Assembly: GCA_964016885.1 (NCBI GenBank)
Contig: OZ024760.1
Coordinates: forward strand, 19,778,001 to 19,842,000
Direction: 5' to 3'
DNA from: Eledone cirrhosa
Lineage: Eukaryota
Length of the DNA stretch: 64,000 bases
Numbering within the stretch: the first letter of the stretch is position 1; each line of letters opens with the position of its first letter. The position numbers were made by a program, and so were the translations under genes. Of the stretch, positions 1-59,665 are shown piece by piece. Under the pieces are notes generated by a model. The model had not been told where the DNA came from, made no database searches, and saw nothing but the letters and a program-made list of their open reading frames with translations.

Positions 1-390
1 TAAAACTAATTTCACAAAAGATCATTAAACACGCTGGTAATAATCGAAATACATCATTTTTACAGCTCCCAATGAGGATGGTCTTTATTGCAAACTTCTG
101 TATATAACTACTGTCAAATTTAATAATGTCAGTGGCAATAGATTTATATAGTTATGTCCACTTTTAGAGCTGTCTTTATATTACAACCTAAAACAAAACC
201 AGACGCATCTGAGAGAACAATACGACACAGCTGCTTTCGCTACTGAGTTTCATTATTAAATACTGATGGTTAGAGAGAGAATAGAGAGGAAATGATGTTG
301 TTTAATGAAGGTGTGTGTGGGTTAGGGGATAGGTTGTTGGGCTCATGATATAAATATATATATAATGTGATATATTATATATATATTACA

Positions 391-579
391 TAATTGTTTC
401 TACTTTAGACACAAGGCCAGCAATTACCCAGTACATTACTGGTACTTTATTTTATCGACCCCGTAAGGATGAAAGGCAAAGTTAACCTCGGCGGGATTTG
501 AACTCAGAATGGCAAGGGCCGTAACTCTATGCGTCAAAGCATGGCGTCCGACTCTCTACCAATACTGCCAATCCACCGC
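391..579 (-). mobile_element. tRNA-derived SINE, family A (Nin/Deu-like core)
   Basis: Reverse complement reads GCGGTGGATTGGCAGTATTGG (A-box-like) ... GAGTTCAAATCC (B box) ... CTTTGCCTTTCATCCTTACGGGGTCGATAAAATAAAGTACCAG (Nin-like core) ... GTAGAAACAATTA. About 20 copies in the window. Confidence 0.85.
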
Positions 580-599
580 TATATATCATATATTATATC

Positions 600-783
600 G
601 GTAGATTGGCAGTATCGGTAGAGGGTCGGACACCATGCTTTCCAGCTTAGTTGCATCCCTTTACGATCTGAGTTCAAATCCCGCCGAGGTTAACTTTGCC
701 TTTCATCCTTACGGGGTCGATAAAATAAAGTACCAGTAATGTACTGGTGAATTGCTGGCCTTGTGCCTAAAGTAGAAACAATT
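600..783 (+). mobile_element. SINE family A, head-to-head with the 391-579 copy
   Basis: Same consensus on the plus strand, about 20 bp from the inverted copy. Confidence 0.85.
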
Positions 784-792
784 ATATTGTAC

Positions 793-6560: not shown

Positions 6561-7428
6561 TTCTTTATTTACCATAAAGGCTATAAATATATATATATAG
6601 AGAGATGAGATTCTACAGGACTAGAACTGTTTCATTCTTTAGAAATCATCAGGAATCTGTGATATATATATATATATATTATACACATATATATATATAT
6701 ATTATATATGTATTATACATATACATTATACATATATATATACACATATATACATATATATATACACATAATATATATATATATATTATATATATGTGTA
6801 TATATAATATATATATATATACACATAATATATATATATTATACATATATATTATACATATATATGTGTATATATAATATATACATATATACATATATAT
6901 ATTATACATATATATGTGTATATATAATATATACATATATATATAAACATAATATATATATTATACATATATATTATACATATATATATATTATACATAT
7001 ATATATATATATATTATACATATATATTATACATATATATATATATTATACATATATATATATATTATACATATAATATATATATATTATACATATAATA
7101 TATATATTATACATATAATATATATATATTATACATATAATATATATATATTATACATATATATATATATATTATACATATATATATATATATTATACAT
7201 ATATATATATTATACATATATATATATATATATTATACATATATATTATACATATATATATATATTATACATATATATATATATTATACATATAATATAT
7301 ATATATTATACATATAATATATATATATTATACATATATATATATATATTATACATATATATATATATATATAATACATATATATATTATACATATATAT
7401 ATATACATTAGATATATATATATATATA

Positions 7429-8685: not shown

Positions 8686-9369
8686 CTTATTTCTATTCCC
8701 TCTTAATAAATGCTAATCACTTAATTAAAATGGTTTATTCCATTTCATTTGAATTCCAAAATTTATAGAAAATTTTGTCAAACATTAGAATCTACTCTTT
8801 AATCATTTAAATTTTTAGACTATTCAAATAAAATAAAAATTCAATATTAAATCAAATCTGATATTTTGAGTTGCCAGATCCAGATTTAATTAAAGCTCTC
8901 TTAACAACAAATAGATGACCTCATTAAAACAACCCTGATATTTAATTAATGTTTTGTTCTATTCCAAATAATGAATAGGCGCGTAATTCATATGTTGGGG
9001 AAAAAGTGAAAAGCTTTCAAGAAATGGAGAGGATGAAACTCAAATACAATTTTGTGTAGTTGCAATAATGATTTCAAAAATATTTCATATCATTTTTACA
9101 GAAAAAAATTCTAAGATAAAAAATATTGCAACGAAATTTATGATATAAACAAAATTAACTCAAATATCGAGTTTTGAAAACAGATGTGTATTTGAATTTG
9201 TAGAAAAATGGAAAAATTCAGCGTATGGAAGCTGTAAAAACAGCAAAATGCTGCCGAAACGGCGTTGGGTAAAACATTACTTCGAAGGACAGAGATCAGC
9301 AGCTCGAACAGTGAATTAACTTGAAGAATTGGTAGGAAGGAAGAAATAGAATGGATGAGAGGAGATTAC

Positions 9370-9466
9370 AAACATTAAAATATGGCTCATCAGATTTCAG
9401 ACCACCTGCAGTTTCAATGATTTAACTGCTGGTGCTTTGAGATCTGATGAGAGTATTTTAATGTTT
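9370..9466. repeat. Imperfect 97-bp palindrome/hairpin
   Basis: AAACATTAAAATAT..CTCATCAGATTTCAGA..GCAGTT pairs with AACTGC..TTTGAGATCTGATGAG..GTATTTTAATGTTT. Confidence 0.75.
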
Positions 9467-9499
9467 TTGATCTGGATGCCCATCCGAACACTAACAACG

Positions 9500-10381: not shown

Positions 10382-10798
10382 GTGGGTGTGTGTGTATATA
10401 TTATAATAGTTAATAAATGAAACAAACAAAACACAGGAGGCAATTTTTACACATTTATATATATATACATATATATATACATATACATATATATATCTAT
10501 ACATATATATATATATACATATATATATACGATATTAATAAATGGAAACTATATTTATAAAACCATATTTATTTCATTATACATATTTCGAGTGCTTTAT
10601 ATCAGTTATAAAAATATTTACTTGTTGTATCCCAACAATTTTAAATAGAACTTTTGCATACATATATATATATATATATTTTTTTTTTCAATGTTGTCTA
10701 CACTTCGTGGTCGAGTCCAGACCTGTTATTTTTATCTAAAGACATTTTTTCCAATTCCAACCCACCCGTCCTCTCAATCTATCTAATTTCTCATTCTT

Positions 10799-10834
10799 TC
10801 TTCTGATGAAGGACTAGCGTCTGAAACGTTAAGA
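10799..10834 (+). ncRNA. Minimal PLE-type hammerhead ribozyme within a dispersed repeat (about 10745-10915)
   Basis: TCTT-CTGATGA-A-GGAC-TAGC-GTCT-GAAA-CG-TT-AAGA. Helix I TCTT/AAGA, palindromic ACGT helix III, GUU triplet. A second copy lies at 47500. Confidence 0.7.
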
Positions 10835-11293
10835 CCCTCTTCCTGCTATTTCAATCGTTAACCTAATATATTCCTTCCATATACTGTACCGATTGTGTTG
10901 TTATTTCTGTTTGCCTTTTACATACATACATAATATATATTGTTAAATTGTTATACTTTGTTAGGGTCATCCTGCCAATAAAAACACACACACCTGTTGG
11001 TTTTCACTTCAATTTATTATAAATTTGTGATTGGTTGGTTGGTTTGTTCGATAACTGGATGGTTGTTTATATATTGTCAATGCTCTTTCATCACATATTC
11101 TGTGGCCTCCTCAATGACTGGGTTTTTATTTTGAGTCTCTCCTTTATTCTGTTCTACACCATCTTGCATTTAAATCCTGAATCTAATAAGACTTTTTGTA
11201 CCTCTGTTTTGTCGTTTATATAATGATATATATATATATATTATCATCATCATCATCATCATCTTCGTTTAACATCCATTTTCATATATATAT

Positions 11294-11511
11294 ATAGGAA
11301 AAAGTATGACCCCGACGGTAGAACTCAAGCCGTTTCGGTGGCTATTTCTGGACGGCTATTTTGACGGCTATTTCTGGACAGAAATAGCCGTCGAAACGGC
11401 TTCAGCTCTGCCGTTGGGGTCATACTTTTTCCTATTACCCACTCTACTACCCTAAGTATTGAGTACTCTGGTGCGTTATGGTCCATCTGGTTCCTTACCA
11501 CAATTCCTTTG

Positions 11512-19816: not shown

Positions 19817-20012
19817 GGCGGTGGATTGGCAGTATCGGTAGGGGGTTAGACACCATGCTTTACAGCATAGAGTTATGACCCTTGCTATTCTGAGTTCAAA
19901 TCCCGCCGAGGGTTAATTTTGCCTTTCATCCTTACGGGGTCGATAAAATATAGTACCAGTAATGCACTGGGGTAATTTCTGGCCTTTTTTGCCAAAAATA
20001 GAAACAATTATT
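19817..20012 (+). mobile_element. SINE family A
   Basis: Starts GGCGGTGGATTGGCAGTATCGG; full core present. Confidence 0.85.
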
Positions 20013-20128
20013 TAAGCAATGTTTTATAGCCTGATACCATTCCTGGTGCCAACACTTTCAGTTATCTCTTACAACAGACAAGGACAGAAATTGTTGTTAC
20101 TCTAAACCAGATATATATACACATATAT

Positions 20129-20476
20129 GGAGGCACATGGCTTAGTGGTTAGAGCATTGGCCTTGCAATCGAAAGGTTGTGAGTTCAATTCTCAGACCGG
20201 GTGATGTGTTGCTTCCTTGAGCAAGACACTTTATTTCACATTACTCCAGTTTACTCAGCTGTAGAAATGAGATGATAGGGACTGGGGTCCATATCATTCC
20301 ACTGCAAAGTGGTCGTGGAGGTGCCACGGCAAAAAAGCACCCAGCACTCACTGTAAATGAGGTTGGTGTTAGGAAGGGCATCCAGCTGTAGAAATCAAGC
20401 CAGAATCAGTTCCCGTCCCACCCTTGCAAGCAGGGAAAAAGCGGACATAAAATGAAATGATGATGCTGATGATGAT
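20129..20476 (+). mobile_element. tRNA-derived SINE, family C (CORE-like body, RTE-type tail)
   Basis: A box TGGCTTAGTGG, B box GAGTTCAATTC, TCCTTGAGCAAGACACTT core, tail CCCACCCTTGCAAGCAGGGAAAAAGCGGAC-(TGA)n. Near-identical to 54721-55060. Confidence 0.85.
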
Positions 20477-20810
20477 ATACATACAATAAAGATTATCTTG
20501 ATAAATGGTTTAATCAATGAAGTTTCAAGTCAGTGAAGTGTGCTATAGAAGCAGACCTAAAATTACAATATCATGTTATATTTTCGTCTTATTTTTCCTT
20601 ATCATCTAATAGACATTTTATTTTCATGTTAATAGACACTAAAATAAATTGGAAACAAAAACAAATTTAATGAGTAATTTTAATTGGAAAAAACGTCAGA
20701 ATTCTCAGAAATTCTTACAATTCCTAACAAAACAAAAAAAAAACGTTTCAAAAGGCAAAAGAAAAAGAAGCTAACAAAAAAATTACTCTTGGAAATGGTC
20801 GTTCAAATAA

Positions 20811-20990
20811 GAATTGTTTCTACTTTTGGCACAAGGCCAGCAATTATCCCAGTGCATTACTGGTACTTTATTTTATCGACCCCATAAGGATGAAAGGCAA
20901 AGTTAACCTCGGCGGGATTTGAACTCAGATCATAAAGGGAGGTAACTCTATGCTTCAAAGCATGGCGTCTGACCCTTACCGATACTGCCA
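20811..20990 (-). mobile_element. SINE family A
   Basis: Reverse-complement core. Confidence 0.8.
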
Positions 20991-21350
20991 TAAGAATATT
21001 AGATGTTTATAGAATATATATATATATATAGAAAGATAGATAGATAGATATAAATATAGATAGATATATATATTATATATATTATATATATAGGTGATGA
21101 ATTTGTTTTGCAAGGTTTTTTATATGAAACCAAACAGTGAGTGTGTTTTATTATATATTTCTGGCAATATTATAACAACATTACCCTCCCCAAATATAAG
21201 ATATATATATATATATATATAGTAAGGTGTATTATTGGTTGTGTAAAACAGTCCAATAAATTTATGTTAGCAATATTAAGTTCTCCACGCTTTTGTATAT
21301 CTCCAATTCCATTCAAGGGAACAGCTAGATGATGTAAAATGGAGTATAAG

Positions 21351-21593
21351 TATCAAAAGGAAAATCTGAAGGCAAGGTAAAATTCCAATGATTTTAATCA
21401 CGACACATGTTTCACTCTGTGAGTGAACATTGCTAATTTTCTCCCTCATATCAAGAATTTGAAGACAATTCATTTTCACCTGATGAGATCAGTGATAATT
21501 GATCACGGCTTTACGATCGATCTATCTCTTATTGAAACATGTGTCGTGATTAAAATGATTGGAATTTTACCTTGCCTTCAGATTTTCATTTTG

Positions 21594-22511: not shown

Positions 22512-23170
22512 TTCCCGCCGAGGTTAACTTTACCTTTCATACTTACGGGGTCGATAAAATAAAGTACCAGTAATACACTGGGTAATTGCTGGCCTTGTGC
22601 CTAAAGTAGAAACAATTATTATTACTATTACTATTACTTCTATTACATTCTGAGTTCAAATTCTGCAGAGGTTAACTTTGCATTTCATCCTTACAGGGTC
22701 GATAAAATAAAGTACCAGTAATACACTGGGTAATTGCTGGCCTTGTGCCTAAAGTAGAAACAATTATTATTACTATTACTATTACTTCTATTACATTCTG
22801 AGTTCAAATTCTGCAGAGGTTAACTTTGCATTTCATCCTTACAGGGTCGATAAAATAAAGTACCAGTAATACACTGTGATCAATTTAATCGATTTTCCCC
22901 TCCACTAAATTGTTGGCCTTGTGCCTAAATCAGAAACAATTCTTCTACTTCTTCTTTTTATTATTATTATTATTATATTATAGGGTAGTGGTTTGGCAGT
23001 AATCGGTGAACGTCAGACACCATGCTTTGCAGCATAGAGTTATGGCCCTTTACGTTCTGAGTTCAAATCCTGCCGAGGTTAACTTTGCCTTTCATCCTTA
23101 CAGGGTCAATAAAATAAAGTACCAGTAATGTACTGGTAAATTGCTGGCCTTGTGCCAAAAGTAGAAATAA
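22512..23170 (+). mobile_element. Tandem partial SINE A units followed by a full SINE A (22983-23170)
   Basis: The 3' half of SINE A is repeated three times, then a complete copy follows. Confidence 0.8.
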
Positions 23171-23624
23171 TAATTATTATTATTATTCTAAATTTCAATA
23201 GAAAATGAATGAAGATCTTGAGACATGTGTGAATATGATTAGTGTGCAACTCTCGTTGGTATCTTCCAATCAATAAACCCTACTACTCACAAGTCAATAT
23301 ATTCCAAGGAGTCAATTATTGTTTTGACAGACAAAAGAAAAAGTTTACTTATGGGAAGAAAAAAGAAAGAAAGAAAGAAAAAAAATTAAATTAAATAAAA
23401 ATAAAATTTTCAAAAAATAAAATAGAAGGAATTTTAATAAAAGCTAAACCAGCCAGAAGGAAAACTAAGGAAATTTGGTGAAAGTTAAAATAGATTATAT
23501 CTATTAATACATAGTACAAAGACAGACGTCTCTAACAAATTTTAATTTCTTGCAAATTTTCTTTACAAGACAAAGATACTGTAATAAATTATATGCAGAT
23601 ATACTGTTATATAAGCAATTGTTT

Positions 23625-25050
23625 TATATAATATATTGTTATATATAATATATTGCTATATATAGTATATTGTTATATAAAATATATTGTTATATATAAT
23701 ATATTGTTATATATAATATATTGTTATATATAATATATTGTTATATATAGTATATTGTTGTATAGAATATATTGTTATATGTAGTATATTGTTATATATA
23801 ATATATTGTTATATATAGTATATTGTTATATATAGTATATTGTTGTATAGAATATATTGTTATATATAGTATATTGTTATATATAATATATTGTTATATA
23901 TAGTATATTGTTATATATAGTATATTGTTGTATATAGTATATTGTTATATATAGTATATTGTTATATATAGTATATTGTTGTATAGAATATATTGTTATA
24001 TATAGTATATTGTTATATATTGTTATATATAGTATATTGTTATATATAGTATATTGTTGTATAGAATATATTGTTATATATAGTATATTGTTATATATAA
24101 TATATTGTTATATATAGTATATTGTTATATATAGTATATTGTTGTATAGAATATATTGTTATATATAGTATATTGTTATATATAATATATTGTTATATAT
24201 AGTATATTGTTATATATAGTATATTGTTGTATAGAATATATTGTTATATATAGTATATTGTTATATATAATATATTGTTATATATAGTATATTGTTATAT
24301 ATAGTATATTGTTGTATAGAATATATTGTTATATATAGTATATTGTTATATATAATATATTGTTATATATAGTATATTGTTATATATAGTATATTGTTGT
24401 ATAGAATATATTGTTATATATAGTATATTGTTATATATAATATATTGTTATATATAGTATATTGTTATATATAGTATATTGTTGTATAGAATATATTGTT
24501 ATATATAGTATATTGTTATATATAATATATTGTTATATATAGTATATTGTTATATATAGTATATTGTTGTATAGAATATATTGTTATATATAGTATATTG
24601 TTATATATAATTGTTTCTACTTTAGGCACAAGGCCAGCAATTACCCCAGTGCATTACTGGTACTTTATTTTATCGACCCCGTAAGGATGAAAGGCAAAGT
24701 CAACCTTGGCGGGATTTGAACTCAGATCGTAAAGGGACGTAACTATGCTGGAAAGCATGGCGTCCAACCCTCTACTGATACTGCCAATCCACTGCCATAA
24801 TATATTGTTATATATTGTTATATATAGTATATATCGTATATATATTGTTATATATAGTATATATCTTGTTATATATAGTATATATATTGTTATATATAGT
24901 ATATATAGTATATATATTGTTATATATAGTATATATCTTGTTATATATAGTATATATAGTATATATATTGTTATATATAGTATATATAGTATATATATTG
25001 TTATATATAGTATATTGTTATATATAATATATATATATAATATATTGTTA
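23625..25050. repeat. About 17-bp AT-rich minisatellite (ATATTGTTATATATAGT) interrupted by SINE A at 24608-24796 (minus)
   Basis: Directly visible. Confidence 0.9.
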
Positions 25051-25319
25051 TACATAATATATTCTTATATATATAATTATCATCATCATCATCCCCGTTT
25101 TACGTCCATTCTTACACACTAGCATGGGTTAGACGGGTTGTTGCGGCATCGAGTTATGTCTTTTATGTTCTGAATTTAAATCCTGCCAAGGTTAGCTTCG
25201 CCTGTCATCCTTATGGGGTCAATAAAATAAAGTACTGGTCATGCACTGGGATCGATTTAATCGACTTTCCTCCTCCTCTCCTTCAAATTGCTGGCCTTGT
25301 GCCTATATTAGAAATCATC

Positions 25320-27350: not shown

Positions 27351-28608
27351 ATCATCATCATCATCATCATCACCGTTTTACGTCCGTTCTTCCACGCTAG
27401 CATGGGTTAGACGGGTTGTCCTGTTGTGGGCAGTGTCTGGTCGGCTGACCATGCCTTGCTCATACAGGAACTGATCTGGCTTGATTTCTACAGCTGGATG
27501 CCCTTCCTAACACCAACCTCATTTACAGTGAGTGCTGGGTGCTTTTTCGTGGCGCCTACACGTCCACTTTACAGTGTGGGCTGGGTGCTTTTTTGCCGTG
27601 GCACCTCCACGACCACCTTGCGGTGGGGGGGGGGGCATATTGTTTATATGCTTCAGCATGTACCCATGGGAGGTCGGGTACCCTGTATTACTGCGTGACG
27701 CCAGAAGTCACGGTCGTGTGTCATTGACTTTGAGAGGTGTAGTTGGGTAAGGTCGGCTTTTATCACCTCATCCCAAGTCATCTTGGGTCTCCCCACTCCG
27801 CGGTTTCCATCAACTTCTAGTGCTCTGCACCTTTTTATGCAGCTGTCATCCTTCATACGCATCACATGTCCATACCAGCGTAACCGCCTCTCCTGCACGC
27901 AGCATTTGATTCCTCTTATGCTCAGTCTCTCTCTCAATTCATTTATGCTTTGTCGTTCACGTATATTACTGTTACACATCCATCGGAGCATGCAGGCTTC
28001 GTTTCTCTCTAATCTACGTAAGTCTTCCACCTTCAGCGCCCAGGTCTCACTACCATGCAACATCGCTGTTCGGATACACGCATCATACAGTCTGCCTTTC
28101 ATTCTGAGGGAGAAGCCTTTTGCAGCTAGCAGTGGTAGTAGTTCCCTAAACTTCTTCCATCCCGTTCTTACCCTAGTTATTGTACTTTCTGAGCACCCAC
28201 CTCCGTTGCTAATTCGGTCACCTAGGTAGCAGAAGCTGTCTACTGTTTCTACAGGGCCCTCCCAGAGATTGGTGGTACTTGTTTCCTGTGGCTGTTTGCT
28301 TGCTGTTTCAGCACAGCTGCTGCATGTGAATCCTACATTCTTAATTAAGCTTCCTGAGATCCCGCTACATCTCTTGTGTACCCATTGTTTGCATGTGGGG
28401 CAAAGAATGGAGTTCCTACCTACACCTTTCCTACATACTGAGCAAGGCCATTTCCCTGAGGGGATCTGGGTTCTGTTTTCTCGTCTACTTATAAGGACCT
28501 TAGTCTTTGTCATGTTGACTTTGAGGCCCTTTCTCTCTAGTCCCTGCTTCCAGGTTTGGAATTTATTCTCTAGTTCTACCATAGATTCAGCTATGAGTGC
28601 GAGGTCAT
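27351..28608 (-). mobile_element. 5'-truncated RTE-clade LINE with 3' UTR, (GAT)n tail and long target-site duplication
   Basis: Open RT C-terminal reading frame, about 290-bp UTR and (GAT)n tail; AGACACAGACATACACATATA flanks both sides (27311 and 28617). Confidence 0.9.
27653..28606 (-). CDS. RTE reverse transcriptase, C-terminal portion with embedded PHD finger (truncated at the YADD motif)
   Basis: DLALIAES...[11 protein letters not shown]...FCYLG...KGRLY...MLHGSETW...[12 protein letters not shown]...GRPKMTW are RTE hallmarks; no stops over about 317 codons. Confidence 0.9.
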
Positions 28609-29033: not shown

Positions 29034-29162
29034 TGTAGGAGGTGAGTTATATTGTAGTACAATAAAGCAATGCAGATATCGGATAAGAAGCACTCTACAG
29101 TTTGTAGGACTGGAGTATACATAATATATAAGATCAAAAGATGGTTAAAGGAGTTCCATGTA

Positions 29163-29229
29163 TTTTATTATGCGCATTTCAAAAACAAACATCATCATGC
29201 AATAATATTTGTGTTTTCATCAGATAAAA
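29163..29229 (-). ncRNA. Hammerhead ribozyme (left-arm copy)
   Basis: Exact reverse complement of 29363-29429. Confidence 0.7.
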
Positions 29230-29362
29230 CAGGAGAACATGATATGAAGGCTAAAAAACACTTGTGGATAGTGCAGTTGATTTAAAACTGCACTTGTGGA
29301 TATGTTGATTTAAAACTGCACTATCCACAAGTGTTTTTTAGCCTTCATATCATGTTCTCCTG

Positions 29363-29429
29363 TTTTATCTGATGAAAACACAAATATTATTGCATGATGA
29401 TGTTTGTTTTTGAAATGCGCATAATAAAA
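29363..29429 (+). ncRNA. Hammerhead ribozyme, intact core, AUA site
   Basis: TTTTAT-CTGATGA-[AAA C ACAAATATTATT GCAT GATGATGTTTGT T TTT]-GAAA-TGCGCA-TA-ATAAAA; helix III palindrome ATGCGCAT. Confidence 0.75.
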
Positions 29430-29473
29430 TACATGGAACTCCTTTAACCATCTTTTGATCTTATATTATATAT

Positions 29474-29510
<37 letters not shown>

Positions 29511-29689
29511 TATACACACACACACACATGTATATATATTTTCTGTTGAAATCAAATACATAAAGACTTTTATTATGTCTGAAATCATATAATATTTATG
29601 ACCAATATGAAAACACCTACCACATGTAGAAGACCAGTAGATGCTAATACATCTAAATACACACACACACACACACTCACACAAATATA

Positions 29690-35397: not shown

Positions 35398-35484
35398 TAG
35401 TATCGGAGCTGTGATCTTTCAATTTGGAGAAGTAACAGTAGAGCTGCTACTTCTCTCAATTGAGAAATCACAGCTCTGATACTA
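35398..35484. repeat. 87-bp imperfect hairpin
   Basis: TAGTATCGGAGCTGTGAT...GAGAAGTAACAG / CTGCTACTTCTC...ATCACAGCTCTGATACTA. Confidence 0.8.
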
Positions 35485-46745: not shown

Positions 46746-46999
46746 GAAAAAAGATGAAATCGAAAATGCAACTGGAGTCTTTTTTAGAATAGTTATTTGT
46801 TTCCTTTACCAGTTTCACAGTTCTTATGCTTTTCAAAAATAGAATCAAGATGGATGGTTTGTGGTTTTTGTACAAGAAAAACCACAAACCCTCCATCTCG
46901 ATTCAACTTTTGAAAAGCATAAGAACTGTGAAACTGGTAAAGGAAACAAATAAATATTCTTAAAAAGACTCCAGTTGCATTTTTGATTTAATCTTTTTT

Positions 47000-47050: not shown

Positions 47051-47091
47051 CGAAACATAAGTCAATTGCATGAACTCATAATCCTTTATTT

Positions 47092-47147
47092 ACTGCTATA
47101 TATATTTTGATGATAGCCATTGAATGGCTATGACCTCATCAGGCAGT
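47092..47147 (-). ncRNA. Hammerhead ribozyme relic (G12 to A)
   Basis: Minus strand: ACTGC-CTGATGA-[GGT C ATAGCCAT TCA ATGGCTAT C ATC]-AAAA-TATATA-TA-GCAGT; all helices pair, but core GAAA is mutated at a CpG. Confidence 0.7.
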
Positions 47148-47354
47148 TATATATATATATATATAGAAATGGAAGTATAGTAAAATCGAAGTTTCAGCTG
47201 TAGCCAAGCTAACCATATATAATTAGGAATGTGAAGCCAAGAGCTCGATAAAGCTGGAGCTCAGAGTAATAACATACGTTAGGTAACAAGATAAATTGAG
47301 AACTGCGGCAGGCAAACCTGGCCACAACACCAATGCAACGAAAAAACTTTCAGG

Positions 47355-47422
<68 letters not shown>

Positions 47423-47499
47423 TTGTATGTATTTCACTAAAAAGAATTTTTCCAATTCCACCATGACTGTCCCTTCAATCTTTCTAATTTTTCATTCTT

Positions 47500-47535
47500 T
47501 CTTCTGATAAAGGACTAACGTCCGAAACGTTAAGA
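47500..47535 (+). ncRNA. Minimal hammerhead relic (G8 to A), paralog of 10799
   Basis: TCTT-CTGATAA-A-GGAC-TAAC-GTCC-GAAA-CG-TT-AAGA, within a repeat at about 47447-47610. Confidence 0.65.
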
Positions 47536-47738
47536 CCCTCTTCCTGCTATTTCAAGTATTAAACTAATATATTCCTTTCCAACACCGTTTGTGTTGTTAT
47601 TTATGTTTACCTCGTAAATATATATATAAATATATATGTGTGCATATATATATATATATATATCATCATCATCATTTTATGATATATATATATGCACACA
47701 TATATATTTTTATATATATATATATATACACGTATATA

Positions 47739-47825
<87 letters not shown>

Positions 47826-47832
<7 letters not shown>

Positions 47833-48022
47833 ATCAAAAGATGGTTAAAAGAGTTTCAAGTATTTTATTATGCACATTTTAAAAACAAATATCATCATGG
47901 GATGATATCTGTGTTCTCATCAGATAAAATAGGGAGACATGATATGAAGCTTAAAAAACACTTGTGAGCAGTAAAATTTTAAATCAACATATGTTGATTT
48001 AAAATTTTACTGCTCACAAGTG
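47826..48022 (-). mobile_element. Second copy of the 29-kb fold-back family, with HHR relic (47863-47929) and a perfect 64-bp apex palindrome (47959-48022)
   Basis: Aligns to 29126-29278; core GAAA mutated to AAAA; helix II pairing retained. Confidence 0.85.
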
Positions 48023-55185: not shown

Positions 55186-55234
55186 GTGTATTAATTCAAA
55201 TATTAACAAAATAGATATTCTTATGATCAATTAA

Positions 55235-55299
55235 ATTTTATTATACATAGTTCAGAGGTACTGAATTAAGTTCAACAGTACGTCCTCATCAGATAAAAT
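55235..55299 (-). ncRNA. Hammerhead copy with GAAA to GAAC mutation
   Basis: Reverse complement of 56135-56199 except A15.1 to C. Confidence 0.6.
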
Positions 55300-56134
55300 A
55301 AAATGATAGATGGTTAAAATTTAATCAAGGTAGTGATTAACTTATGAGAAAACTCAATATTTATACCCTATTATTGAGAACATAAGAAAACATAATAGAA
55401 TCAATAGAGAGAGTGTGAGTAATATATTTTAAGAAATACATGGCATCAATGCAACAGTTATAGAATTATTAATATTTAAAATACTACTATAGATCTATGC
55501 GGTAGAGGAAAGTATAGAGGAAGATGTAGCTGAAGTTATAACTTATTTAGTATTTAGCTTGAGAAGACAAATGACAGATAATTAAAGAGAGGGAGAGACA
55601 GTCCTTTAAATTTGTTTTCATAAAATTTTGAATTTTAGAAATTTAACATAATTATATTATAATATTAATACAAATACCCATCAACTTTTAAAACCTAAAA
55701 TTTTGATTCTTTACCCTGAAATAACATAAGTTAAATATTTTGAAAATTAACCGCCAAAACTATATATGATTATGTGTGTATAAAGAAATTTGAACATAAA
55801 TTACTCCACTTTGACTCTCCCTCTCTTTAATTATCTGTCATTTGTCTTCTCAAGCTAAATACTAAATAAGTTATAACTTCAGCTACGTCTTCCTCTATAC
55901 TTTCCTCTACTGCATAGTTCTATAGTAGTATTTTAAATATTAATAATTCTATAACTGTTGCATTGATGCCATGTATTTCTTAAAATATATTACTCACACT
56001 CTCTCTATTGATTCTATTACGTTTTCTCATGTTCTCAATATTAGGGTATAAATATTGAGTTTTCTCATAAGTTAATCACTACCTTGATTAAATCTTAACC
56101 ATCTATCATGTCAGGGTATGTCATGTATCATTTT

Positions 56135-56199
56135 ATTTTATCTGATGAGGACGTACTGTTGAACTTAATTCAGTACCTCTGAAATATGTATAATAAAAT
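56135..56199 (+). ncRNA. Hammerhead ribozyme, intact core, AUA site
   Basis: ATTTTAT-CTGATGA-[GGA C GTACTG loop CAGTAC C TCT]-GAAA-TATGTA-TA-ATAAAAT. Confidence 0.75.
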
Positions 56200-56366
56200 T
56201 TAATTGAATATCTATTTTGTTAATATTTGAATTAATATTAATAACTCTGGAAAATATTTTTCCTGTAGAGTGCTTCCAATCTATTGTAAAACTCATTCTT
56301 TGATGTACTCATTGAATCTTGTTTAACTCTTTAATATACATGTATATATGTATATATATACATGTG

Positions 56367-59283: not shown

Positions 59284-59665
59284 GCCATTAACAATTTCAT
59301 TGATATTCATTAATGCCAAACCAAATTCTTCACTGCGGTCTCTCCAGTGTTAATTATGACACCTCAGTTTTTGGTCACTTTTAAATATCAGAGAGAAACA
59401 ATAAAAAAAATAAAAATGAAACATCTCTCACCATTCAGCAGAACATGAAGTTCCATATTTCTACAGAACCATAATTCAAATGAAACCTTTATTCCTCTAA
59501 ATGGTGATAAATTATTCAGATGATAACTAGTGAAGGACAGATGAAAAGTAGTAACACGCTCACACAGGAAATACTATTACATCTGATAAAATATATATAT
59601 ATATATAGGGAAAAAAGATGAAATCGAAAATATAGAGAGAGCTAATTTTGTAGTCTAACTGTAAC

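What the first reader, a model, noticed from the sequence alone, without database searches (positions are those of the whole stretch)
47826..48022. Diverged paralog shows pairing-preserving changes in helix II and the same fold-back apex
Relative to the 29-kb copy, the helix II stem substitutions all keep pairing (U-G to U-A, U-G to C-G twice, A-U to G-U twice), supporting selection on RNA structure, although GAAA has decayed to AAAA. Its apex is a perfect 64-bp palindrome centred on TCAACAT|ATGTTGA, and TATGTTGATTTAAAA also survives in the 29-kb spacer. Two separate loci folding at the same point suggests a programmed hairpin end rather than a random 5' inversion.
Basis: partly seen in the sequence, partly recalled or inferred. 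Interest (0 to 1): 0.75.

Follow-up and report, generated by a model that had tools for sequence, protein, structure and literature searches.

The report
Head-to-head Penelope hammerhead mini-elements
The mirror-image repeat is the ribozyme-bearing end piece of a known kind of jumping gene (a Penelope-like element), pasted in head-to-head, and its copies meet at the same spot most likely because that is where the copied RNA begins, not because of a special hairpin end.

Summary
The sequence claims hold. The 64-bp palindrome (47959-48022) is perfect, and 5 of 5 helix II stem changes keep pairing. All five are one-sided transitions, though, with no compensatory pair (chance 0.03-0.08). The two loci do not fold at the same point. 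Their forward copies start at the same base, but the 29-kb inverted arm stops 14 nt short and is joined through three 3-4-nt microhomology switches. Public contigs show a very high-copy 167-bp family whose 5' border is exactly this apex. The unit has the marks of a Penelope-like element (PLE) terminal repeat: a type I hammerhead with a palindromic helix III, (TA)n targets, head-to-head inversion, and a one-sided 3' tail. That tail ends in a 14-mer shared with a second, diverged palindromic family at 55 kb, 68 and 70 nt after the ribozyme cut site. Inverted pLTRs with palindromic junctions and tails are published PLE features. Best reading: an ORF-less PLE end module mobilised in trans, with the apex at the template RNA's 5' end. 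The autonomous partner, the RNA and the share of copies folding exactly at the apex were not seen. New member of a known kind.

The parts
47826..47992 (-). Complete 167-bp unit (PLE pLTR-like, no ORF), diverged subfamily copy, no tail; 3' end runs into (TA)n
   Evidence: 23 differences from 29300-29466 without gaps (4 further differences lie in the TA flank)
47861..47931 (-). Type I hammerhead motif: helix I 8 bp, CUGAUGA core at 47923-47917, long helix II 47916-47881, AAAA in place of GAAA at 47880-47877, self-complementary helix III UGUGCA, predicted cut after 47869
   Evidence: probably inactive because G12 is changed (G12 as general base is recalled knowledge)
47959..48022 (.). Perfect 64-bp palindrome; centre ATAT is the unit's 5' end; the forward arm stops after about 34 nt and runs into TA-rich DNA
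29300..29466 (+). Complete 167-bp forward unit with intact hammerhead (29361-29431, core at 29369), no tail
   Evidence: family depth rises from 7.6 thousand to 413 thousand at 29300
29126..29278 (-). Inverted copy of the unit, 5'-truncated by 14 nt, intact hammerhead (core at 29223)
29276..29302 (.). Locus-specific junction: forward piece (unit 29304-29322) and inverted piece (unit 29333-29322) joined by microhomologies of 3, 4 and 3 nt
   Evidence: single-copy depth 13.7-27 in run X1
29087..29114 (-). One-sided 3' tail of the inverted arm, ending in the 14-mer shared with the 55-kb family
   Evidence: 10 contigs of X1 run on behind 29475 with a consensus whose first 18 letters match it (table 7)
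55189..56276 (.). Second, diverged family: head-to-head arms (55189-55598 / 55815-56238), a hammerhead in each (cores -55292, +56142), one-sided tail on the right arm ending at 56263-56276 in the same 14-mer
   Evidence: arms 393 matches, 8 mismatches, two indels

Best explanation
The 167-bp unit is the ORF-less terminal repeat (pLTR) of a Penelope-like retroelement, amplified as a high-copy non-autonomous family in a microsatellite-rich animal genome (probably a mollusc, octopus-like). SHOWN: unit borders, hammerhead motif, head-to-head arrangement, (TA)n flanks, one-sided tail, subfamily alleles. INFERRED mechanism: an autonomous PLE protein (GIY-YIG nuclease plus reverse transcriptase) binds the RNA, nicks (TA)n DNA on both strands and primes cDNA from each nick, one from the far end of the tail and one from the near site. 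Both target junctions are therefore element 3' ends, and only one arm has the tail. The cDNAs run towards the RNA's fixed 5' end (ATATG..., 69 nt upstream of the hammerhead core, probably a transcription start) and are joined head-to-head by short microhomology. When both reach the end, the self-complementary ATAT gives a perfect apex (47 kb; its forward arm was later lost or never finished). When one stops short, template switches leave a patchwork spacer (29 kb). The apex recurs because the template has one 5' end. Pairing-preserving changes record selection on active master copies; the 47-kb copy itself is probably a dead daughter.
For: Hammerhead type I with palindromic helix III and long helix II, as described for PLE pLTRs (PMC4209133). 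Sharp 5' border at 29300: near-linear depth ramp of about 48 thousand per base against a plateau/31 of 45 thousand. One-sided tail seen at two palindromes with an identical 14-mer 68 and 70 nt after the cut site, the only 2 matches in the window at up to 2 mismatches (expected 0.22; 1 of 100 shuffles reached 2), and carried by 10 contigs of X1. The spacer is single-copy while the arm is of the order of thousands of copies (rough). At 29 kb the left arm has a tail the right lacks and the right has 14 head bases the left lacks, so neither is a plain copy-back of the other. Published: inverted 5'-truncated copy, 30-40-bp tail and (TA)n bias (PMC8557442); palindromes at head-to-head junctions (PMC3846280); a PLE protein cuts and extends both strands and starts at two sites that bound the tail (PMC11167929); a defined start site and internal promoter in the pLTR (PMC2377424).
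Against: No autonomous PLE ORF was found next to the unit, and none could be searched for genome-wide (no genome held). No target-site duplication is discernible. The 47-kb short arm lacks a 3' end, which twin priming explains only with a later deletion; snap-back explains it directly. The loose ends at the apex resemble a fold-back only in a mixed consensus (18 contigs, agreement 0.54). The alignment of the two families downstream of the ribozyme is weak apart from the 14-mer (119 of 5000 shuffles score as high). Only two copies of this family were read in full.
Confidence: 0.7

Rival explanations
1. Same element, but the inversion is made by self-priming (snap-back): one cDNA or antisense template folds back at the ATAT end and is copied into a hairpin, which the nuclease then resolves, trimming the tail from one arm. 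This is closest to the first reader's view and to the published hypothesis for rotifer Penelope elements.
For: The 47-kb arms are identical, including 6 alleles that differ from the 29-kb copy, and the short arm has no 3' end. Loose ends at 29300 have median length 15 and match the expected fold-back in 9 of the last 11 letters (post hoc P about 0.002). PMC3846280 proposes self-priming; PMC8557442 ascribes the tail to nuclease resolution.
Against: A zero-loop palindrome needs more than AT:AT pairing to prime (inference). The 29-kb junction needs three switches and does not fold at the apex, and each arm has sequence the other lacks.
Confidence: 0.3
2. A palindromic DNA transposon (MITE or foldback type) whose apex is inherited from one palindromic master; the two loci are not independent folding events.
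For: Long terminal inverted repeats at 29 kb, TA-rich flanks, and other ribozyme-less palindromes in the window such as 46757-46989.
Against: The spacer is single-copy in X1, the ends are asymmetric with a family-encoded tail, the 47-kb copy has only one full arm, and a hammerhead under structural constraint has no role in a MITE.
Confidence: 0.07
3. A non-LTR retrozyme that replicates through circular RNA.
For: Type I hammerhead, small size, low GC, no ORF; retrozymes are proposed to derive from PLE pLTRs (10.64898/2026.07.22.740005).
Against: Retrozymes are head-to-tail tandem repeats (PMC7229834). Neither locus is tandem, the unit does not start at the cut site, and no end-to-start joint was listed among 3330 contigs (contigs cannot show absence).
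Confidence: 0.05
4. Assembly or library fold-back artefact, or local segmental duplication.
For: Perfect palindromes are a known artefact class (recalled).
Against: The mirror stops at element borders with unrelated flanks, and the 29-kb spacer is covered by contigs of run X1 (X1 may be the source sample).
Confidence: 0.03

Closest known systems
Endonuclease-positive Penelope-like element insertions with inverted pLTR and tail (Adineta vaga Pen2a/Pen2/Pen3a, PMC3846280; general scheme in PMC8557442 Fig. 2 legend)
   Same: Head-to-head inverted terminal repeat, palindrome at the inverted junction (18 and 38 bp reported, 64 bp here), inverted copy shorter at its 5' end, tail of about 30-40 bp on one arm only, microhomology joins, repeat length near 200 bp.
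   Different: No ORF between the repeats here; copy number of the order of thousands rather than single copies; no TSD seen; one tail motif shared by two diverged families.
Hammerheads of metazoan PLE pLTRs (PMC4209133)
   Same: Type I topology, enlarged helix II, very short palindromic helix III suited to dimer cleavage, motifs on opposite strands 100-700 bp apart, mostly without ORF.
   Different: Helix II is longer (12-15 bp against 6-8), it lacks the usual G10.1-C11.1 pair, and the 47-kb copy has G12 changed to A.
Poseidon of Anolis carolinensis in vitro (PMC11167929)
   Same: AT-rich target; two reverse-transcription start sites downstream of the hammerhead that bound the tail; both strands cut and extended.
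   Different: Autonomous element with the ORF starting inside the hammerhead; no such reading frame runs through this unit.
Non-LTR retrozymes (PMC7229834; 10.64898/2026.07.22.740005)
   Same: Small, non-coding, type I hammerhead, PLE-related.
   Different: Head-to-tail tandem arrays and circular RNA; here dispersed head-to-head pairs with a PLE tail.

Membership tests
Penelope-like element (EN+) | RT plus GIY-YIG ORF (in cis or from an autonomous partner carrying the same pLTR) | not testable with these tools
   No long frame through the unit; no genome held; collection scans empty.
Penelope-like element (EN+) | Hammerhead motif in the terminal repeat | tested here: met
   (descriptor search; Rfam gave no hammerhead hit)
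Penelope-like element (EN+) | Inverted, 5'-truncated copy adjacent to the 5' end (head-to-head) | tested here: met
   29-kb locus; the 47-kb locus is head-to-head but its second arm lacks the 3' part
Penelope-like element (EN+) | 30-40-bp tail at one end only | tested here: met
   28 nt beyond the last base shared with the other arm at 29 kb, about 39 nt at 55 kb; 10 contigs of X1 carry it; absent at 47 kb
Penelope-like element (EN+) | AT-rich or (TA)n target | tested here: met
   (TA)n at three of the four outer junctions of the two loci; 57 contigs run into (TA)n behind 29474; the genome is TA-rich throughout, so this is weak
Penelope-like element (EN+) | Target-site duplication | tested here: inconclusive
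   None discernible; PMC8557442 notes the same difficulty in microsatellites
Type I hammerhead ribozyme | Core CUGANGA, GAAA, UH with three helices | tested here: met
   Met in both 29-kb arms; no core variant among the 13 listed in X1 (which cannot prove invariance)
Type I hammerhead ribozyme | Intact GAAA in the 47-kb copy | tested here: not met
   AAAA at 47880-47877
Type I hammerhead ribozyme | Two-sided covariation | tested here: not met
   0 of 8 scored paired-site changes are two-sided; 8 of 8 keep pairing; too few sequences for R-scape
Type I hammerhead ribozyme | Self-cleavage | not testable with these tools
   needs an assay
Non-LTR retrozyme | Head-to-tail tandem units | tested here: not met
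MITE / foldback DNA transposon | Symmetric termini and an internal region shared among copies | tested here: not met
   One-sided tail; single-copy spacer
Hairpin-ended replicon with a programmed resolution site (features recalled) | Same fold point in every copy | tested here: inconclusive
   1 of 2 fully read loci folds at the apex; the genome-wide share could not be counted from contigs

The most novel reading that the evidence does not exclude
Most of the thousands of copies fold or join at exactly the ATAT apex, so the unit's first bases act as a dedicated cis signal for building the mirror arm, while the 14-mer kept at a fixed distance from the ribozyme cut in two otherwise diverged families is the recognition or priming signal of one PLE enzyme. 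This would be a minimal 200-nt PLE substrate with all signals mapped, able to decide between twin priming and self-priming as the origin of PLE inverted repeats.
Probability: 0.2. Interest if true: 0.55.

Novelty: new member of a known kind. Interest (0 to 1): 0.3.

Why it matters
How PLEs make their tandem and inverted insertions is still open (PMC8557442, passages). A tiny, very high-copy, ORF-less family with a sharp 5' border, subfamily-marking alleles and a conserved tail motif is a convenient natural data set: arms from different subfamilies in one insertion would show twin priming, and identical arms with a fixed apex would favour self-priming. It also warns annotators that such palindromes look like MITEs or miRNA hairpins. 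The architecture itself is not new.

Tried and rejected
No genome is held, so all-copy alignment and a breakpoint plot could not be done. Pattern scans of metagenome (2), prokaryote genome (1) and viral (1) contigs found nothing. Rfam gave one tRNA-like hit in the window at gathering level and, for 29050-29550, 37 sub-threshold hits, mostly miRNA and snoRNA models drawn by the long hairpin, with no hammerhead. No RNA holder was listed among the sequencing runs; this says nothing about expression. I laid 4 of the 24 listed runs. The raw-read runs X21 and X22 (organism E) gave 0 laid reads in about 1.9 Gb each, which is no test; X4 gave 3 contigs, one identical over 150 bp at depth 3.35 and breaking at GATC. 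I read the many 'organisms' as probable carry-over of a very abundant repeat and use them as no evidence of range. An X4 contig at depth 72 aligned to the spacer with 4 mismatches and 5 gap letters and was set aside as unclear. A-to-I editing as the source of A-U to G-U changes was considered: among the 23 differences there are 8 A/G and 11 C/T, so no skew. Changes in the outer extension of helix I (29356-29358, 29432, 29433, 29436) were not scored because the pairing there is ambiguous. Searches of earlier scan notes by sequence, place and one word set were empty. One cited paper on PLE hammerhead variants was not held. The supplement of PMC13282606 was listed but not read and could describe this family.

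Full report
Setting. The window is microsatellite-rich animal DNA. It holds a tRNA-like repeat head and a fragment of a LINE-type reading frame whose Atlas neighbours carry PHD and RVT_1 domains, with two clusters labelled Mollusca on one member each and the top cluster labelled Bacteria 67% on three members. 'Octopus-like' is my inference from that weak label and from recalled repeat types; it is not established. No genome is held.

Checking the observation. The palindrome at 47959-48022 is perfect, with 32-bp arms and centre 47990|47991. The minus strand of 47826-47992 aligns without gaps to 29300-29466 with 23 differences, 19 of them transitions. A descriptor search finds a type I hammerhead in both 29-kb arms and in the 47-kb arm, the last with AAAA for GAAA. 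None is two-sided. A random transition keeps pairing in 50-60% of cases, so 5 of 5 has a chance of 0.03-0.08; 98 of 5000 random six-transition versions of the 29-kb helix were as stable as the 47-kb one, and 1627 of 5000 in the reverse direction. Adding the helix I change and two helix II variants seen in public contigs gives 8 of 8 (0.004-0.017); six changes in the ambiguous outer part of helix I were left out. The helix III change keeps self-pairing through G-U (duplex -8.3 against -3.8 kcal/mol). So structure is conserved, modestly shown.

The two loci do not fold at one point. At 29 kb the perfect arms are 153 bp with a 35-nt spacer. The junction parses into the inverted arm ending at unit position 29314, a forward piece (29304-29322), an inverted piece (29333-29322) and then the forward unit from 29300, joined by overlaps of 3, 4 and 3 nt. 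Only the start of the forward copy is shared with 47 kb. The flanks are unrelated apart from one 269-bp dispersed match, so this is not a segmental duplication.

Family view. I laid 4 of 24 listed runs on 29279-29476. Run X1 gave 3330 contigs. Summed depth is 14-27 over the spacer, 7.6 thousand just before 29300, 413 thousand at 29300-29306 and 1.4 million by 29330. The rise is close to linear at about 48 thousand per base, matching plateau/31 (45 thousand), as expected if nearly all copies that have the 5' half reach 29300 (my inference). Against the spacer depth this suggests thousands of arms, but the tool warns that it is no copy number. Seven of the 13 listed variants are 47-kb alleles, and 7 contigs carry a 47-kb-type helix II, so that copy belongs to a subfamily. 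Eighteen contigs have loose letters before 29300 (median 15, agreement 0.54), and their consensus matches a fold-back in 9 of the last 11 letters (post hoc). Fold-back at this apex therefore probably recurs, but its share is unknown. The other three runs gave 0, 0 and 3 records and add nothing.

The tail. Ten X1 contigs run on behind 29475 with a consensus whose first 18 letters are the sequence beyond the left arm at 29 kb, so that 'flank' is element DNA present on one arm only. A second palindromic hammerhead family at 55189-56276 also has a one-sided extension, and both end in the same 14-mer, 68 and 70 nt after the predicted cut. These are the only 2 matches in the window at up to 2 mismatches (expected 0.22; 1 of 100 shuffles reached 2). 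The rest of the two 3' regions aligns weakly (119 of 5000 shuffles). Both tails can form a small hairpin that includes the motif.

Comparison with print. PMC3846280 (parts 1-4 of 5 read) describes an inverted pLTR adjoining the 5' end, shorter than the direct one, a 31-bp tail on one inverted pLTR, 18- and 38-bp palindromes at pLTR 5' ends and solo pLTRs, and infers self-priming from mostly head-to-head junctions. PMC8557442 (passages) gives the same scheme, (TA)n bias, and Naiad PLEs in Octopus, which lack hammerheads. PMC4209133 (parts 1-2 of 4) describes PLE hammerheads with enlarged helix II and palindromic helix III, some on opposite strands 100-700 bp apart. PMC11167929 (parts 1-2 of 4) shows a PLE protein cutting and extending both strands, with two start sites bounding the tail, and no need for ribozyme cleavage in vitro. 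PMC2377424 (passages) maps a start site and internal promoter in the Penelope pLTR. Retrozymes are tandem (PMC7229834, passages; 10.64898/2026.07.22.740005, part 1 of 5). PMC6765202 and PMC6431247 were seen as passages. PMC13282606 (passages) lists recently active Penelope families in Octopus vulgaris and has no mention of hammerheads or palindromes in its main text; its supplement was not read. Seven searches showed no description of this family in their listings; most subscription papers and repeat databases were not searched.

Mechanism. Shown: borders, motifs, arrangement, tail, subfamilies. Inferred: mobilisation in trans, RNA start at the apex, and how the arms are made. At 29 kb the left arm has the tail and the right arm has 14 head bases the left lacks, so one arm is not a simple copy of the other; two primed cDNAs joined by microhomology explain this most simply. 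At 47 kb the short arm without a 3' end fits snap-back better. Self-priming followed by nuclease trimming cannot be excluded at either locus. In both models the recurring point is the template's 5' end, which is ordinary for an element with a fixed start. Two earlier AI notes on a shark-like genome reached similar readings; they are leads, not support.

Verdict. Interest 0.3.

Noticed in passing
window 55189-56276: Large head-to-head palindrome of a second hammerhead family with a 215-nt spacer, one-sided tail and the shared 14-mer; the left ribozyme has GAAC for GAAA.
   Followed up: partly
window 21310-21590: Third hammerhead element (core at +21480, helix III ACAUGU) preceded by an inverted copy of its last 70 nt; the inverted arm runs on with sequence faintly like the 29-kb 3' end and tail.
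   Followed up: partly
window 10740-10930 and 47440-47610: Two non-palindromic copies of another repeat with a compact hammerhead-like motif (cores at +10803 and +47504), typical of PLE pLTRs from memory.
   Followed up: no
window 47090-47150 (minus strand): Small hammerhead-like motif beside (TA)n, also with AAAA in place of GAAA; a second G12-to-A case in the window.
   Followed up: no
window 6610-6665 (minus strand): Descriptor hit with a longer helix III next to (TA)n; may be chance.
   Followed up: no
window 390-785: Two copies of a SINE-like repeat head-to-head around a TA-rich centre; the arms differ in a block of about 35 nt, as if two different templates were joined. Other inverted repeat pairs lie at 19827-20990 and 22989-25250.
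   Followed up: no
window 46757-46989: 233-bp near-perfect palindrome with no hammerhead found, next to (TA)n; its first bases recur near 59610. MITE-like.
   Followed up: no
window 9363-9473, 11294-11435, 35398-35484: Shorter imperfect palindromes; the first has the CUGAUGA core in both arms but no rest of a hammerhead.
   Followed up: no
window 27653-28600 (minus strand): 3' part of a LINE-type reading frame (PHD and RT-related Atlas neighbours), cut off by a long microsatellite.
   Followed up: partly
window 29294 (run X1): One contig at depth 13.7 lacks 7 letters of the 29-kb spacer: another allele or another copy with a related junction.
   Followed up: no
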